Shown: positions 845-5,518 of the stretch, one piece after another | Layout: every line of letters starts with the position of its first letter | Position numbering within the stretch: position 1 is the first letter of the stretch | Source of the DNA: Planctomycetota bacterium | GTDB taxonomy: Bacteria; Planctomycetota; MHYJ01; JACPRB01 | Direction: 5' to 3' | Assembly (NCBI GenBank): GCA_035490275.1 | Contig: DATHFI010000186.1 | Location: forward strand, 1 to 24,510 | DNA: 24,510 nucleotides | Notes under the pieces: generated by a model | The model's database searches: none | What the model was told of the DNA's origin: nothing | What the model saw: only the letters and a program-made list of their open reading frames with translations | Translations under genes and position numbers: made by a program

Positions 845-1600
845 TTGCCTAAAAAGCTGAAAGAGACGTATCCCCGCCTCGGCGAAATCCTCGTGCGCAA
901 GGGCGTGGCCAAGCCACAGCACATCGACGAGGCCCTCGCCATGCAGCGGCACCAGATCAACGAGGGCGGCAGCGCCACCCGCTTGGGCGACATCCTCGTC
1001 AAACGCAACATCTTAAGCCCCATAGTGATCCGTGAGATCCTTGAGGAGCAGCGGATCGGCCGGGGGGAGAAGCGGGTCCTCACGATCGGCCTTCGGGACA
1101 ACGGCGACGTCGCCGTTCTGGAGCTGGCCGGCCGGCTCGATGAAACGAAGCTGGACACCGTGACGCGCGTCTTCGAGCGGCTCATGAACCGCGGTTTCTG
1201 CAAGGTCCTCGTCGACTGCCGCCAGCTTGTCTACCTCGACAGCCATGGCGTTTCCGCCTTCGTGGCCTATATCGACGAGGCGCGCGCCCGCGGAGGCGAC
1301 GTCAAGTTCTGCGGACTCAATCCCGACGCCCAGTTCACGCTCGACCGCCTGGGACTCAACCCCTACCTCCAGACCTTCACGGTGGAAGAGGAGGCGGTCC
1401 GGGCCTTCGAGCTCCCCATCGACGAGTACATGTCGCGCGGTGCTCTCGGCGAATACGTCTCCATCGGCGTCCAGAAGACCTTTCACCTCTCGTACTGCCC
1501 GGCCCTCGAGGGCACCGACGACGAGGAGAGGGCCTACTACGAGAGCAAGAAGCACGCGCGCGATGCCGGCAAGGTCGCGTGCCGCAAGTGCCGGCCCTAA
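845..1600 (+). CDS. MshEN (c-di-GMP-binding motif pair) + STAS anti-sigma-factor antagonist + Ada-type Zn-binding domain fusion
   Basis: RLGEILVRKGVAKPQHIDEALAMQ and RLGDILVKRNILSPIVIREILEEQ are two 24-aa MshEN motifs. VAVLELAGRLD...VLVDCRQLVYLDSHG...LGL is a SpoIIAA/RsbV-type STAS with the phosphoacceptor Ser. FHLSYC...YYESKKHARDAGKVACRKCRP is Ada_Zn-like. TTG start. Confidence 0.8.
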   Translation: MPKKLKETYPRLGEILVRKGVAKPQHIDEALAMQRHQINEGGSATRLGDILVKRNILSPIVIREILEEQRIGRGEKRVLTIGLRDNGDVAVLELAGRLDETKLDTVTRVFERLMNRGFCKVLVDCRQLVYLDSHGVSAFVAYIDEARARGGDVKFCGLNPDAQFTLDRLGLNPYLQTFTVEEEAVRAFELPIDEYMSRGALGEYVSIGVQKTFHLSYCPALEGTDDEERAYYESKKHARDAGKVACRKCRP

Positions 1601-1787: not shown

Positions 1788-2282
1788 ATGAGGTCCCTGG
1801 CGCTCCTCGCGGTTCTCCTGTCGGTCGCCTCCTGCCAGACCCCCTCCGCGCCCGTCGGCGGCTCTTCAGCGCCACTCGCGATGACGCTCCGTTATTCCGT
1901 CAAGAAGTCGGCTCCCGGCGCGGCCGCGGCGGCCACCCCGGCGCACTTTGTCGTCGAGGCCTCGCTCCTCTCGAAAGGAGCCGCGCCTCAAACCCAGACC
2001 CTGGTCATCTACGATTCTAAGTGGGCCACCATGAAGGTCGGCGAGGTGCTCCAAGCGGTGAAGGACATAGAGCCCACTCCGGATGGCGAGGATGCCGTGC
2101 CGGTGGAAGTCGACATTTTCACGGGCACCCTGTTCGCATTCCGGTGCCGCGAGGCGAAGGATGGCAGGATCGAAACCAACGTCAGGGTCTATGAGGTCAG
2201 GGACGGCCGCCTGCGGGGCCGCTTCTCTTCCAACGACACCCTGGGCAGCGGCGAATCCAAGGAACTTCCCCTCATGCCTTGA
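1788..2282 (+). CDS. Lipoprotein, 164 aa, with weak resemblance to part of the secretin beta-domain
   Basis: ATG at 1788 within ORF 1227..2282. MRSLALLAVLLSVASC is a signal peptide II with lipobox VASC. The upstream part of the listed ORF is antisense-like or repeat-derived. Confidence 0.75.
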   Translation: MRSLALLAVLLSVASCQTPSAPVGGSSAPLAMTLRYSVKKSAPGAAAAATPAHFVVEASLLSKGAAPQTQTLVIYDSKWATMKVGEVLQAVKDIEPTPDGEDAVPVEVDIFTGTLFAFRCREAKDGRIETNVRVYEVRDGRLRGRFSSNDTLGSGESKELPLMP

Positions 2283-2354
2283 GAGACAGCACCTCCTTCC
2301 AAAGACTCTATAAGATCTTAAGACTAATCATCTCCGTCGTAAGAGTCTTTGAGT

Positions 2355-2409
2355 TGTGGATGGATTGTTGATAATCACAGTAACACACTCATTTTCAGAC
2401 ACTTACACA
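2355..2409. promoter_or_regulatory. Cluster of DnaA-box-like sites with IHF-like sites between them
   Basis: Against TTWTNCACA: rc CCATCCACA 2355-2363 (7/9), rc TTATCAACA 2366-2374 (8/9), ATAATCACA 2371-2379 (7/9), ACTTACACA 2401-2409 (7/9). Back-to-back WATCAAN4TTR-like sites at 2381-2393 (-) and 2393-2405 (+), 2 mismatches each. Confidence 0.6.
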
Positions 2410-2541
2410 AAACACCCATCGTTTAATCCTCTGTAAGATTTAGAGAAACACCCGAGAAAGGAGTGTTGGTCTTTTGGGGAGGATCCGGGGAGACTCGCGA
2501 GCGACCTCTTGGGATGTGAAGAGGGGGTAAACTTCCCGGAA

Positions 2542-2561
2542 AGTCCCACAGAACTTCCACA
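2542..2561 (+). promoter_or_regulatory. Tandem DnaA-box-like pair next to the dnaA stop
   Basis: AGTCCCACA 2542-2550 (6/9) and ACTTCCACA 2553-2561 (7/9), same orientation, 11-bp period. Confidence 0.5.
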
Positions 2562-2568
2562 GGCCGGT

Positions 2569-3945
2569 TTACAGTTCGGAGGCCCCCTTGAGGAGCCGGC
2601 GCAGGGAGTCGACCTCGCCCCGTAGAACCTCGTCGCTCTCCAGCCCGCGCTGGACGCGCTTCAACCCGTAGACGACCGTCGAGTGATCCTTCCCGCCGAA
2701 GAACGAGCCGATCTCGGCGAGCGAGTGGCTCGTCATCTCCTTGCACAGGAACATCGCGACCTGGCGCGCCTTCGAGATCGACTTGGTCCAGGTCCGCGTG
2801 CGGAGATCGGTGACCTTCTTGCCGTAGTACCGGGCGACGAACTCCTGGATCCGGGGGATGCCGATGGGCGGCGCCCCGCCCGATCCGATATCTTTCAGGG
2901 CTTCGTGCCCGAGGGCGAGATCGACGGTGCGCCCGGACAGGGTGGCGTACGCGATGAGCTTGTTCACCGCGCCCTCGAGTTCGCGGATGTTCGTGTCCAC
3001 CGCCGACGCGACGAAGGAGAGGACGTCCTCGGGAATCTCCCGCTGCTTCAGCTCCGCCTTCCGGCGCAGGATCGCCACCCGCATTTCGAACGTCGGGGGG
3101 TCGACGCGCGCCTCGAAGCCCGCGAGGAACCGCGAGACGAGCTGCTCCTTGAGCGTGCGGATCTCCTTCGGCCCGGAATCGCTCGAGAGGACGATCCTCC
3201 GCTGGGCCATGTGGAGCGCGTTGAACGTGTGGAAAAACTCCTCCTGGCTGGAGTCCTTGCCCGCGAGGAAGTGGACGTCGTCGATGACGAGCGCGTCGGC
3301 GCCCCGCATGCGGCGGCGGAAATCCTCGATGCGCCCCTTCTGGAGCGCGCCGATGTACTCGTTCACGAAATGCTCGCACGACATGTAAAGGATGCGCGCG
3401 TACGGATTGCGCGCGAGCACCGCGTGGCAGATCGCTTGGAGGAGATGGGTCTTGCCCAAGCCGACGCCGCCGTGGACGAAGAACGGGTTGTAGACGTTGC
3501 CGGCCCCCTCGGCGACCGAGAGCGCGGCCGCGTGGGCGACGCGGTTGGTCGGCCCGGCGACGAAGGTGTCGAACGTGTAATTCGGGTTCAGGACCAGGTC
3601 GCCGCTGGCCACCGGGGCGGGGGGCGGCGGGACGGCGCGGGCCGGGGGCCGGGGCGCGGGCGGGGGGGGTGCGAAGACCGCCATCGCCTCCGCGGAATCG
3701 CTGATGCGGAAGGCGAGCCCGGGCGCGCGGCCGAAGACCTGGCGGAACGCCTCCTCGAGCGGGCGGCGGATCTCGCGTTCGAGCCAGTCGCGGTAGAAGG
3801 CGTTCGGAACCGGGACCTCGAACGAATTCTCGGCGACCTCCTCGATCGCGAGGTTGCGGCACCACGTCTGGAAGATGGCCGGCGGCACCGCCTGCTCGAG
3901 GCGCGTGAGGATCGACTCGCGGGTCTCAGGGGCGAGGGCGGTCAT
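2569..3945 (-). CDS. dnaA: Chromosomal replication initiator protein DnaA (458 aa)
   Basis: Domain I (FQTW...VPNAFYRDWLE), LNPNYTFDTFV, Walker A GGVGLGKTHLL, Walker B LVIDDVH, LVSRF, RELEGA, domain IV SLAEIGSFFGGKDHSTV. Start placed at ATG 3945, which overlaps the FHA gene stop (ATGA). Confidence 0.97.
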   Translation of the reverse strand: MTALAPETRESILTRLEQAVPPAIFQTWCRNLAIEEVAENSFEVPVPNAFYRDWLEREIRRPLEEAFRQVFGRAPGLAFRISDSAEAMAVFAPPPPAPRPPARAVPPPPAPVASGDLVLNPNYTFDTFVAGPTNRVAHAAALSVAEGAGNVYNPFFVHGGVGLGKTHLLQAICHAVLARNPYARILYMSCEHFVNEYIGALQKGRIEDFRRRMRGADALVIDDVHFLAGKDSSQEEFFHTFNALHMAQRRIVLSSDSGPKEIRTLKEQLVSRFLAGFEARVDPPTFEMRVAILRRKAELKQREIPEDVLSFVASAVDTNIRELEGAVNKLIAYATLSGRTVDLALGHEALKDIGSGGAPPIGIPRIQEFVARYYGKKVTDLRTRTWTKSISKARQVAMFLCKEMTSHSLAEIGSFFGGKDHSTVVYGLKRVQRGLESDEVLRGEVDSLRRLLKGASEL

Positions 3946-4466
3946 TTGGGGATCGTCCGTTCGAAGGCCCAGAGGAAGGCGAGACGGGAGATCCACGCTC
4001 CGCCGGCGAAGACGGCGAGGAGGATGATCCAGAAGAAAATGCTCCGGGCCGCGCCCGGGCCTTGGATGATGATATTGGTGCGCTCGCGGGCCGGTCCCCG
4101 GCCCGGGCCCGCCTCGACCGGCGCCGCGGCGGCCTCGGAGGCCCGCGGGACGCGCAGCTCGGGGGCGAGGCCCCCGTCGTCGCGGTCCAGTTCGAAGGTG
4201 AAAACGGTGCGGCCGATGCGGATCCGGTCCCCCGGGTAGAGGACTTCGGGGGCCCCGACGGGCATTTCGTTCAGGAAGGTCCCGTTGCGGCTCTCGAGGT
4301 CGCGGATGACGTAGGCCCGCCCGTCGAAGGCGATGCCGGTGTTCTCGCGGGAGGCCTGGGTGTCGTCAATCATGACACCGCAGCCCTCGTGGCGGCCGAT
4401 GATGAGGGATCGGCCCACGGGATAGCTGCGGGGCGGTCCCCCTGACTCCAGGATGATTCGGGCCAC
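3942..4466 (-). CDS. FHA-domain protein with C-terminal transmembrane helix
   Basis: IIGR...ASRE...IRDLESRNGTFLN...GDRIRIG is the FHA signature. A Pro/Ala/Arg linker follows, then hydrophobic IFFWIILLAVFAGGAWI. GTG start preceded by GGAG. Confidence 0.9.
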   Translation of the reverse strand: MARIILESGGPPRSYPVGRSLIIGRHEGCGVMIDDTQASRENTGIAFDGRAYVIRDLESRNGTFLNEMPVGAPEVLYPGDRIRIGRTVFTFELDRDDGGLAPELRVPRASEAAAAPVEAGPGRGPARERTNIIIQGPGAARSIFFWIILLAVFAGGAWISRLAFLWAFERTIPK

Positions 4467-4530
4467 GCGGAAAGCTCCGATCCAAGGCGGGGTGGGGGGT
4501 AGGCAGGATGTCCGCGTCGGTCGAATCGTC

Positions 4531-4539
4531 TATGGAAAA
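4531..4539 (-). promoter_or_regulatory. DnaA-box-like site in the FHA-dnaA 5' leader
   Basis: rc TTTTCCATA is 8/9 to TTWTNCACA. A similar rc TTTTCCATG (7/9) lies at 4675-4683. Confidence 0.4.
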
Positions 4540-4627
4540 GTCTTTTGGACCGGTGCGCGCGCGGACGATGCTCCCGTATCTCTCCGTCCGACTCCCCCGA
4601 ACCCCGGCACCCTCTCCGTCCGGGGCC

Positions 4628-4655
4628 ATTCTAGTCGCGACCCGAATCGCGTCAA
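4628..4655 (-). promoter_or_regulatory. Sigma70-type promoter for the FHA-dnaA operon
   Basis: Minus strand TTGACG (4655-4650)-N16-TAGAAT (4633-4628), close to TTGACA-N17-TATAAT. Confidence 0.65.
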
Positions 4656-4677
4656 CCGTTTTTGTCGGGCGCTCCAT

Positions 4678-4705
4678 GGAAAATGCACGAGCGGTCCCGG
4701 TCTTA
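4678..4705 (+). promoter_or_regulatory. Candidate ECF (sigmaE/AlgU-like) promoter upstream of the ECF sigma gene
   Basis: GGAAAAT (4678-4684)-N16-TCTTA (4701-4705), compared with GGAACTT-N16-TCAAA/TCTGA. Spacing is correct but the match is only partial. Confidence 0.3.
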
Positions 4706-4879
4706 CATGAAGAATGGTCCGCCTTCGCGCGGACAGCATCGGAAATGGGCCGACGTTTTTCCGGGGCGGAAGCCCCGGCGACGCCGGGACTGGCGGGATC
4801 GGGCCCTCCCCCGTATTCTTTTCCTGCGCCATGGAACCAAGCTCGAAGCGCATCTGCGGCGGGGAGCTGGGAGCGGGCC

Positions 4880-4914
4880 GCTGACTGCTGAGCGCTGACT
4901 GCTGATCGCTGAAC
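4880..4914 (+). repeat. Tandem heptamer array (GCTGANN)x5
   Basis: GCTGACT GCTGAGC GCTGACT GCTGATC GCTGAAC, immediately before the GGAGG RBS of the sigma gene. Confidence 0.9.
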
Positions 4915-4930
4915 TAATGGAGGCCTTGGG

Positions 4931-5518
4931 TTGTCCCAATTCCCAGAACCCCGGGAGGCGCCCGACGCCGCCGCCGAGGAGGCCCTCGTCCGACGGGCCC
5001 AGGCCGGCGACCGCGACGCCTTCCGATCGCTCTATCAAAAGTACCAGGACCGCGTCTTCGCGACGGCGTACCGCATCGCGGGCGACCGCGAGACGGCCGC
5101 CGACCTGACCCAGGAGGTCTTCGTCAAGATCTTCGAGGAGCTCCCCGGGTTCCGGTTCGGCAGCCGGTTCTCCACGTGGCTCTACCGCGTCGCGGCGAAC
5201 CACGCCATCAACAAGGCTTCCGAGACGGCCCGGCACGCCCGGCTCAACGAGCGGATCGCGCGCGAGCGCCCCGCCGCGGCGCCGGCGGACCCGCCCTCCC
5301 GCGACCGGTTCGCGGGCGAGCGCCTCCAGGCCGCCCTCGCCGCGCTCAGCGTCAAGCTGCGCGCCGTCACGGTCCTGCGGTACCTCGAGGGATTGTCGTA
5401 CGAGGAAATCGCCGAGACCCTGGAGCTGTCCATCGGGACCGTGAAGTCCCGGCTCTTCCTGGCCCACGCGACGCTCCGGGAGCTGATGGACGACGATGTG
5501 AAGGAAGGTGACCGATGA
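4931..5518 (+). CDS. rpoE: ECF RNA polymerase sigma factor (sigma-70 family, RpoE-like)
   Basis: Region 2 (GDRDAFRSLY...DLTQEVFVKIF...FSTWLYRVAAN) and region 4 (LRYLEGLSYEEIAETLELSIGTVKSRLFLA). TTG start with GGAGG 7 nt upstream. Confidence 0.93.
   Translation: MSQFPEPREAPDAAAEEALVRRAQAGDRDAFRSLYQKYQDRVFATAYRIAGDRETAADLTQEVFVKIFEELPGFRFGSRFSTWLYRVAANHAINKASETARHARLNERIARERPAAAPADPPSRDRFAGERLQAALAALSVKLRAVTVLRYLEGLSYEEIAETLELSIGTVKSRLFLAHATLRELMDDDVKEGDR

What the first reader, a model, noticed from the sequence alone, without database searches (positions are those of the whole stretch)
2569..4466. dnaA is translationally coupled to a membrane-anchored FHA-domain gene
The FHA gene stop and the dnaA start overlap as ATGA (3942-3945), and one sigma70-like promoter (4628-4655) lies upstream of both. 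dnaA is normally the first gene of a dnaA-dnaN operon. FHA domains bind phosphothreonine (established), and this protein has a cytoplasmic FHA plus a C-terminal TM helix. The conserved His of the SRxH motif is replaced (SREN). Inference: coupling would give roughly stoichiometric synthesis of an adaptor that could tether DnaA or oriC to the membrane, or relay Ser/Thr-kinase signals to replication initiation. That would be an undescribed control layer.
Basis: partly seen in the sequence, partly recalled or inferred. Interest (0 to 1): 0.68.

Follow-up and report, generated by a model that had tools for sequence, protein, structure and literature searches.

The report
Conserved FHA–dnaA coupled operon
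In one order of uncultured soil Planctomycetota, the replication initiator gene dnaA always follows, and overlaps by four bases, a small membrane-anchored phosphothreonine-reader (FHA) gene, which makes this protein an untested candidate regulator of DNA replication start.

Summary
A 174-aa gene (4466-3942, minus strand) encodes an N-terminal FHA domain, a disordered linker and a C-terminal transmembrane helix. Its TGA stop overlaps the ATG of a bona fide dnaA (3945-2569) as ATGA.

**Conservation**
- The pair and a 4-nt [A/G]TGA overlap occur in all 17 assessable species genomes of the window's order (9 genera).
- They also occur in 9 of 9 metagenome contigs with independent gene calls.
- The last FHA codon always ends in the base the dnaA start needs, although its residue varies.

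**Expression signals**
- A sigma70-like promoter (TTGACN-16/17-TAGAAT) lies 115-225 nt upstream of the FHA start in all 16 loci with upstream sequence; no such motif lies inside the FHA gene.
- The FHA start has a Shine-Dalgarno-like motif; the dnaA start mostly does not.

**Distribution**
- Two sister families keep looser linkage.
- No FHA gene lies upstream of dnaA in 13 genomes from nine other families of the class, or in 60 other Planctomycetota.

**What is not shown**
- No evidence shows that the FHA protein acts on DnaA.
- The SREN substitution is specific to this genus.

I found no published description.

The parts
4628..4655 (-). Sigma70-like promoter TTGACG-16 nt-TAGAAT (-35 at 4655-4650, -10 at 4633-4628)
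   Evidence: Consensus scan. Both hexamers and the spacing are invariant in 4 genus-level relatives while the flanks diverge. The same motif lies 115-225 nt upstream of the FHA start in 13 of 16 loci of the order, with near variants in the other 3, and has 0 hits in 102 kb elsewhere in those loci.
4467..4621 (-). About 155-nt leader (5' UTR) with conserved purine-rich and GC-hairpin motifs, ending in a Shine-Dalgarno-like GGAG at 4478-4475
   Evidence: Alignments. No Rfam match. Structure support is weak. SD duplex energies.
3942..4466 (-). FHA-linker-TM gene, 174 aa, GTG start, TGA stop
   Evidence: The N-terminus MAR(I/L)ILESGG aligns at residue 1 in all 17 orthologues.
4182..4466 (-). FHA domain (residues 1-95)
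   Evidence: Pfam PF00498. The AF2 beta-sandwich has pLDDT of about 87-95. Foldseek top matches are the EmbR, FhaA, GarA and DgcB FHA domains, TM up to 0.92 by target. G24, R25, S39, R40, N61 and G62 are invariant and T63 is present in 67 of 69.
3963..4043 (-). C-terminal transmembrane helix (residues about 142-168), leaving a tail of about 6-14 residues
   Evidence: Hydropathy of at least 1.81 in all 69 relatives, always near the C-terminus. Helix 139-171 has pLDDT of 95 or more.
3942..3945 (-). ATGA: the dnaA start overlaps the FHA stop
   Evidence: and independent gene calls in 24-26, 66-68 and 76-78.
2569..3945 (-). dnaA, 458 aa from ATG 3945, TAA stop
   Evidence: Pfam DnaA_N, Bac_DnaA and Bac_DnaA_C. 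TIGR00362 above its cut-off. It is the only DnaA ATPase-domain match in the assembly.

Best explanation
The FHA gene and dnaA form one conserved two-gene operon.

Shown by sequence and comparison:
- A conserved sigma70-type promoter and leader lie upstream of the FHA gene.
- The FHA gene has its own Shine-Dalgarno-like site and usually a GTG start.
- dnaA has an ATG that overlaps the FHA stop and mostly no Shine-Dalgarno site of its own.

Inferred: ribosomes that terminate on the FHA gene re-initiate on dnaA, so DnaA synthesis is tied to, and probably capped by, FHA synthesis.

The FHA protein is a tail-anchored inner-membrane protein. Its cytoplasmic FHA domain keeps every residue that contacts phosphothreonine.

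Most likely function (inferred, not shown): it reads a Thr-phosphorylated partner produced by one of the genome's many Hanks-type kinases, and it acts in the same process as DnaA. That would mean control of replication initiation, or of where DnaA or the origin sit relative to the membrane. I put the operon and coupling part at about 0.85. I put a direct role in DnaA or initiation control at about 0.4, which is the confidence given.
For: - Pair and 4-nt overlap are present in 17 of 17 assessable genomes of the order (9 genera). FHA identity falls to 31% and DnaA identity to 46%.
- 9 of 9 metagenome places show the same 4-nt overlap with third-party gene calls.
- The third base of the last FHA codon is fixed while its residue varies.
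- The promoter motif is conserved upstream of FHA, is not found inside FHA, and has 0 hits elsewhere in 102 kb.
- An SD-like motif precedes FHA (duplex energy -4 to -12 kcal/mol) and is weaker before dnaA in 16 of 17 loci.
- FHA fold, invariant R25/S39/R40/N61 with near-invariant T63 (67 of 69), and a conserved TM anchor.
- About 28 Pkinase matches over the Pfam cut-off in this 73%-complete assembly.
- Looser FHA-dnaA linkage persists in two further families. f6 is sister to the order on a DnaA tree with 95/96 support.
- In the three order genomes that lack an FHA orthologue, dnaA is also missing or cut by a contig end.
- Precedent that replication controllers are Hanks-kinase targets: YabA/YabT (PMC5871692). 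DnaA is listed as a phosphoprotein in Streptomyces coelicolor (PMC4754617).
Against: - There is no direct evidence of transcription, coupling or binding.
- Conserved neighbours of dnaA need not act in replication; rpmH, rnpA, yidC and jag are examples.
- In family f9 an Aminotran_5 gene lies between the FHA gene and dnaA, and it is the gene that overlaps FHA. In f6 there is a 139-nt gap.
- FHA-linker-TM look-alikes in other families sit next to a CN-hydrolase or stand alone.
- No Thr of DnaA is both invariant in the order and specific to it.
- The anti-SD sequence was assumed canonical, not read from this genome's 16S.
- The genomes compared are related, so the counts are not independent events.
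Confidence: 0.4

Rival explanations
1. Hitch-hiker. The FHA-TM protein works in another membrane-linked, kinase-controlled process, such as envelope growth or division. It merely shares the dnaA promoter, so it is made with the same timing as DnaA and has no action on DnaA.
For: - FHA-TM look-alikes in other families have unrelated neighbours.
- In f9 the gene coupled to FHA is an aminotransferase.
- DnaA has no order-specific Thr.
- The closest named small membrane FHA protein, FhaB, belongs to a cell-wall and division gene cluster (PMC3989709).
- Later checks in this scan on another dnaA neighbour noted that non-replication genes also stay beside dnaA.
Against: The 4-nt overlap, rather than mere adjacency, has been held across deep divergence in every genome examined. 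Linkage to dnaA survives in three families.
Confidence: 0.35
2. Expression device. The selected feature is the coupling itself. A GTG-started, leader-controlled upstream cistron sets and buffers the translation rate of an SD-less dnaA. The FHA protein's own function is secondary or unrelated.
For: - GTG start in 13 of 17 FHA genes; dnaA has an ATG start but weak SD complementarity.
- Strongly conserved leader and translation-initiation region before FHA.
- No near-consensus DnaA boxes upstream of FHA in 15 of 16 loci, so the usual autoregulation signature is missing.
Against: The FHA protein is itself under strong purifying selection on its ligand-binding residues and TM anchor, so it is not just a spacer ORF. 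The reading is compatible with, not exclusive of, the best explanation.
Confidence: 0.15
3. Independent genes. dnaA is transcribed and translated on its own from signals inside the FHA gene, and the overlap is only inherited compact spacing.
For: Promoters of Planctomycetota are poorly known, so an internal promoter could escape a sigma70 consensus scan. Two loci have some SD-like complementarity before dnaA: L004 at -7.8 and L012 at -6.0.
Against: - No promoter-like motif inside FHA in any of 16 loci, while every locus has one upstream.
- The overlap base is conserved against a 5.7% background.
- These genomes are 4-7 Mb and not compact.
- Intergenic gaps elsewhere in the same loci are hundreds of bases.
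Confidence: 0.1

Closest known systems
FhaB/FipA (Rv0019c) of Mycobacterium and cg0063 of Corynebacterium (NCBIfam NF049868)
   Same: A small protein of about 155-175 aa with a single-pass membrane anchor and one FHA domain. It is a target or partner of Hanks-type kinases and is encoded in an origin-proximal gene cluster (PMC3989709). It is the best NCBIfam match to the window's protein.
   Different: It scores 58.4 bits against a cut-off of 125, and only the FHA domain aligns. The FHA domain is C-terminal in the profile (positions 86-157 of 158) but N-terminal here, so the topology is reversed. Its operon partners are fhaA, pstP, rodA, pbpA, pknA and pknB, not dnaA. The paper that proposed its FtsZ link (PMC2797604) is marked RETRACTED in the library.
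GarA/OdhI, FhaA (Rv0020c), EmbR and DgcB FHA domains (solved structures)
   Same: Same fold and the same phosphothreonine-binding residues. These are the best sequence and structure matches.
   Different: Those proteins are soluble or multi-domain, with known partners (KGD/ODH, MviN, their own N-terminal pThr). None is tail-anchored or linked to dnaA.
YscD/EscD-type T3SS inner-membrane ring proteins (Pfam PF16697) and T6SS TagH/Fha
   Same: An N-terminal cytoplasmic FHA-like domain followed by a TM helix. PF16697 scores 43.6 bits against a cut-off of 33.2. JGI auto-annotations call relatives 'component of type VI secretion system'.
   Different: Only about 6-14 residues follow the TM helix, so there is no periplasmic ring domain. 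No T3SS or T6SS genes are adjacent. TagH scores 32 bits against 120. YscD-type FHA domains generally lack the pThr-binding residues (from memory), whereas they are invariant here.
Lineage-specific DnaA regulators (Hda, DiaA, HobA, YabA, SirA, Soj) and kinase control of YabA by YabT
   Same: The proposed role is the same: a lineage-restricted accessory factor that tunes DnaA. YabA phosphorylation by a Hanks-type kinase is a precedent for Ser/Thr signalling reaching initiation control (PMC5871692, PMC4754617).
   Different: None of these is an FHA protein, membrane-anchored, or translationally coupled upstream of dnaA. No homology was detected.

Membership tests
FHA domain (Pfam PF00498) | Profile score above the gathering cut-off | tested here: met
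   51.3 bits against 20.7, E=1.6e-13
FHA domain (Pfam PF00498) | Eleven-stranded beta-sandwich fold | tested here: met
   AF2 model with pLDDT of about 87-95 over residues 1-95. Foldseek probability 1.00 to the EmbR, FhaA and GarA FHA domains.
FHA domain (Pfam PF00498) | Conserved Gly-Arg, Ser-x-x-His and Asn-Gly(-Thr) loops that bind phosphothreonine | tested here: met
   G24, R25, S39, R40, N61 and G62 are invariant and T63 is present in 67 of 69. His42 is Asn in this genus only, 10 of 69. From memory, the His buttresses the loops and does not touch the phosphate.
FHA domain (Pfam PF00498) | Binds phosphothreonine peptides | not testable with these tools
   Needs a binding assay.
FhaB/FipA (NCBIfam NF049868) | Equivalog score of at least 125 bits over the whole protein | tested here: not met
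   58.4 bits, FHA domain only; the domain order is reversed.
T3SS YscD/EscD (PF16697 plus periplasmic ring domains) | Periplasmic ring-forming domains after the TM helix, and a T3SS gene context | tested here: not met
   The protein ends 6-14 residues after the TM helix. Its neighbours are an ECF sigma operon, dnaA and a STAS gene.
T6SS TagH/Fha (TIGR03354) | Score of at least 120 bits | tested here: not met
   32.1 bits
DnaA (TIGR00362) | Equivalog score above the cut-off; domains I, III and IV present | tested here: met
   471.6 bits against 343.9. DnaA_N, Bac_DnaA and Bac_DnaA_C match.
Translationally coupled gene pair | Same strand, with the stop of the upstream gene overlapping the start of the downstream gene | tested here: met
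   ATGA at 3945-3942. [A/G]TGA in 17 of 17 loci.
Translationally coupled gene pair | Downstream start lacks its own strong ribosome-binding site | tested here: met
   Duplex energy to the assumed anti-SD is about -3.2 before dnaA and -5.8 before FHA in the window. It is weaker before dnaA in 16 of 17 loci. The anti-SD was assumed canonical.
Translationally coupled gene pair | Translation of the downstream gene depends on translation of the upstream gene | not testable with these tools
   Needs a reporter fusion with a premature stop codon in the FHA gene.

The most novel reading that the evidence does not exclude
A membrane-tethered phosphothreonine reader, made from the same mRNA and by the same ribosomes as DnaA, captures or releases Thr-phosphorylated DnaA (or an origin-bound partner) at the inner membrane. 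That would give Hanks-type kinases direct, eukaryote-like control over replication initiation in a bacterial lineage.
Probability: 0.2. Interest if true: 0.8.

Novelty: new variant of a known kind. Interest (0 to 1): 0.52.

Why it matters
DnaA accessory regulators are lineage-specific, and none is known for Planctomycetota, a phylum with unusual cell biology and very many Ser/Thr kinases. A phosphothreonine reader that has stayed translationally coupled to dnaA across a whole order is a concrete, testable candidate. It could link kinase signalling, the membrane and replication start. Even if the protein proves unrelated to DnaA, the locus is a clean natural case of an essential initiator gene whose translation appears to depend on an upstream cistron. 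It also comes with a conserved promoter and leader that could be used to study gene expression in this phylum.

Tried and rejected
- **Complex prediction.** FHA residues 1-140 with full-length DnaA returned 'no answer' (score 0.01, mark 0.34). This is no evidence either way.
- **Sequencing runs.** No RNA holder is listed; the holders are soil metagenome DNA runs. Expression could not be examined and read laying was not used.
- **Rfam.** No match on the leader and intergenic region.
- **RNA structure.**
  - RNAalifold on 12 leaders gave only two short stems with little covariation.
  - The RNA around the junction folds no better than shuffles, z = 0.2.
- **The search for related loci.**
  - With the 17-sequence alignment it failed for lack of a conserved stretch.
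  - With 8 sequences it mostly returned generic FHA paralogues, and was useful only for naming the phylum.
- **Representative-library search.** It was swamped by multi-FHA proteins, and only about a dozen 50%-identity clusters have the single-FHA, 165-190-aa architecture.
- **Candidate phospho-Thr on DnaA.** None is both invariant in the order and specific to it. T27 and T387 are merely enriched.
- **DnaA boxes upstream of FHA.** None within one mismatch in 15 of 16 loci. They tend to lie downstream of dnaA instead.
- **Literature.** Searches for an FHA-dnaA operon or for FHA with Planctomycetes found nothing relevant.
- **GTG 3996 as the dnaA start.** Considered and rejected. It is absent in a same-genus relative (L003), and all orthologues start at the overlap ATG or GTG.
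Full report
**What is in the window**

On the minus strand, GTG 4466 opens a 174-codon frame that ends in TGA 3944-3942. ATG 3945 opens a 458-codon dnaA that ends in TAA 2571-2569. The two genes therefore share ATGA at 3945-3942.

The upstream product matches Pfam FHA (51.3 bits, cut-off 20.7). The downstream product matches DnaA_N, Bac_DnaA and Bac_DnaA_C and passes the NCBIfam DnaA equivalog (471.6 against 343.9 bits). It is the only DnaA ATPase-domain match in the assembly.

The neighbours are:
- Upstream, on the other strand, an ECF sigma/anti-sigma/RseB-like operon starting at 4931.
- Downstream of dnaA, an AT-richer gap followed by convergent genes, including a STAS-domain gene at 845-1600.

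dnaN lies on another contig. The assembly is a 73%-complete soil MAG. Relatives are labelled Planctomycetota in their NCBI records.

**The FHA protein**

An AlphaFold2 model built on 69 relatives (mean pLDDT 84.6) has three parts:
- a beta-sandwich over residues 1-95;
- a disordered Pro/Ala-rich linker;
- a confident helix over residues 139-171.

Foldseek places the sandwich with the FHA domains of EmbR, FhaA, GarA/OdhI and DgcB, as does a profile search of PDB sequences.

In all 69 relatives the most hydrophobic 19-residue window scores at least 1.81 on the Kyte-Doolittle scale. It lies close to the C-terminus, most often 14 residues from it. The protein is therefore tail-anchored, with the FHA domain in the cytoplasm.

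The residues that bind phosphothreonine in solved FHA domains are G24, R25, S39, R40, N61, G62 and T63. All are invariant here except T63, which is present in 67 of 69 relatives.

The His of the S-x-x-H motif is Asn only in the window's genus-level clade, 10 of 69 sequences; the other 59 keep His.

**Conservation of the pair**

The window's order holds 20 species genomes, in one family and 9 genera. In every genome where the locus can be assessed (16 relatives plus the window), a full-length FHA-linker-TM orthologue lies directly upstream of dnaA on the same strand. FHA identity falls to 31% and DnaA identity to 46%.

All 17 junctions are a 4-nt overlap: ATGA in 16 and GTGA in one.

In the three genomes without an FHA orthologue, dnaA is also missing or cut by a contig end.

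Nine metagenome or MAG contigs, with gene calls made by JGI, NCBI, ENA or Logan pipelines, show the same 4-nt overlap.

The last FHA codon is AAA, CGA, CAA, CCA, ACA, TCA or CTA, with AAG in the GTGA case. The residue drifts, but the third base that forms the dnaA start is held. Only 5.7% of third positions in these genes are A. That is a nucleotide-level constraint on the overlapping start. The genomes are related, so the counts are not independent, but the residue changes show repeated substitution with the overlap preserved.

**Expression signals**

- It is the only such site in 2200-5000.
- Both hexamers and the spacing are invariant in four genus-level relatives whose flanking intergenic DNA has diverged.
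- A strict pattern, TTGAC-N16-19-TAnn[A/T]T, hits 115-225 nt upstream of the FHA start in 13 of 16 loci of the order.
- The same pattern does not hit anywhere else in 102 kb of those loci on either strand.
- The other three loci carry near variants: TTGACT-17-TATACT, TTGATG-15-TATATT and TTGACT-17-TAGACT.
- No locus has the motif inside the FHA gene.

The leader between promoter and start carries conserved motifs, and the sequence just before the FHA start is nearly fixed across genera.

Complementarity to a canonical anti-Shine-Dalgarno sequence is -4 to -12 kcal/mol before the FHA start. It is weaker before the dnaA start in 16 of 17 loci. The FHA gene starts with GTG in 13 of 17 loci, and dnaA starts with ATG in 16 of 17.

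Together these features fit one transcript on which dnaA is translated by ribosomes that have just finished the FHA gene. This is inference from sequence. No RNA data were available.

**How far the arrangement reaches**

| Group | Arrangement |
|---|---|
| Window's order (f1), 17 assessable genomes | FHA orthologue directly upstream, 4-nt overlap, 17 of 17 |
| Family f6, 1 genome | FHA orthologue 139 nt upstream of dnaA |
| Family f9, 6 genomes | FHA, then an Aminotran_5 gene that overlaps FHA by 4 nt, then about 240 nt, then dnaA |
| Nine other families of the class, 13 genomes | No FHA ORF within about 4 kb upstream of dnaA |
| 60 other Planctomycetota, at least 90% complete | No FHA-domain ORF in the 1.2-3 kb upstream of the best DnaA match |

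The same HMM that found nothing in the last two groups found the f1, f6 and f9 genes, so it serves as a positive control.

On a DnaA tree the order is one clade (100/99) and is sister to f6 (95/96). The position of f9 is unresolved.

In a profile search of 400 genomes of the phylum, orthologues from the order score above 195 bits and everything else scores 113 bits or less. None of the best outside hits lies beside dnaA.

FHA-linker-TM look-alikes in other families sit next to a CN-hydrolase gene or stand alone.

**What this supports and what it does not**

The operon and the coupling are well supported (I put them at about 0.85). A role of the FHA protein in DnaA control is only suggested.

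In favour of such a role:
- tight coupling has been held across a deep clade;
- linkage is retained in three families;
- the phosphothreonine-binding site is intact;
- the genome has about 28 Hanks-type kinase matches over the Pfam cut-off;
- there are precedents for Ser/Thr phosphorylation of replication controllers (PMC5871692, PMC4754617).

Against it:
- in f9 the FHA gene is coupled to an aminotransferase gene;
- look-alikes elsewhere have unrelated neighbours;
- DnaA has no order-specific invariant Thr;
- genes unrelated to replication are also known to stay beside dnaA.

I rate a direct replication role at about 0.4, a hitch-hiker reading at 0.35, a purely expression-setting role of the upstream cistron at 0.15 and independent expression at 0.1.

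**Comparison with known systems**

The nearest named protein is FhaB/FipA of Actinobacteria, a small membrane FHA protein in an origin-proximal kinase cluster (PMC3989709).
- The window's protein fails that family's cut-off (58 against 125 bits) and has the reversed domain order.
- The paper behind the FipA-FtsZ link is marked retracted in the library, so I do not lean on it.

The protein is not a YscD/EscD or TagH secretion component. It has no periplasmic domain, no secretion genes are adjacent, and TagH scores 32 against 120 bits. The 'type VI component' labels given by JGI to relatives are therefore likely over-annotation.

I found no paper describing an FHA gene coupled to dnaA. Earlier notes of this scan describe a different FHA membrane protein coupled to hda in another genome, and a caution about reading function from dnaA neighbours.

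**Verdict**

- Observation: confirmed.
- The finding is a previously undescribed, lineage-restricted operon variant, and a good experimental lead rather than a demonstrated control layer.

Noticed in passing
window 4467-4621 (minus strand); L008-L017, L164, L167 leaders: The 60-190-nt leader of the FHA-dnaA operon carries motifs conserved across genera: GCCTTCCG near the predicted 5' end, a GC-rich hairpin with a GGGGRA loop, GGGGGAAG, and a nearly fixed GCGACCGAGGGAT.GTCTCG just before the start. There is no Rfam match and only weak covariation, so it could be a regulatory leader.
   Followed up: partly
L164-L167, L209, L210 (metagenome contigs); window 4931-5518: In most genera a 296-aa ParB_N-domain gene is divergently transcribed from FHA-dnaA, next to an N6_Mtase/Eco57I-type methyltransferase gene. 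In the window's genus an ECF sigma operon occupies that position instead.
   Followed up: partly
window 845-1600 (+); L164 6193-6948, L167 6155-6916, L207 5690-6445: A 251-253-aa STAS-domain gene lies convergent to dnaA beyond the gap downstream of dnaA, in distant members of the order as well as here. Near-consensus DnaA boxes (at most 1 mismatch) lie 40-440 nt downstream of dnaA in 11 of 16 loci and almost never upstream of the FHA gene, so oriC probably lies in that gap.
   Followed up: partly
L149 2054-5443 (G038, family f9): In family f9 the FHA orthologue overlaps by 4 nt an Aminotran_5 (cysteine-desulfurase-like) gene. That gene is followed after about 240 nt by dnaA.
   Followed up: partly
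G008:C70, G019:C19, G012:C181, G018:C630, G016:C375, G006:C4 (loci L122-L127): Several genomes of the order carry a second, divergent DnaA-like gene of about 420-520 aa, 28-33% identical to the window's DnaA, away from the FHA-dnaA locus.
   Followed up: no
L001-L017, FHA start codons: The FHA gene starts with GTG in 13 of 17 loci, whereas dnaA starts with ATG in 16 of 17. This is a conserved weak start on the upstream cistron.
   Followed up: partly
window 4044-4058 (minus strand): A terminator-like hairpin (CCGGGCGCGGCCCGG followed by a T-rich run) lies inside the FHA coding region just before the TM segment. Three such sites were found in the region against 2.1 expected, so it is probably chance.
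   Followed up: no
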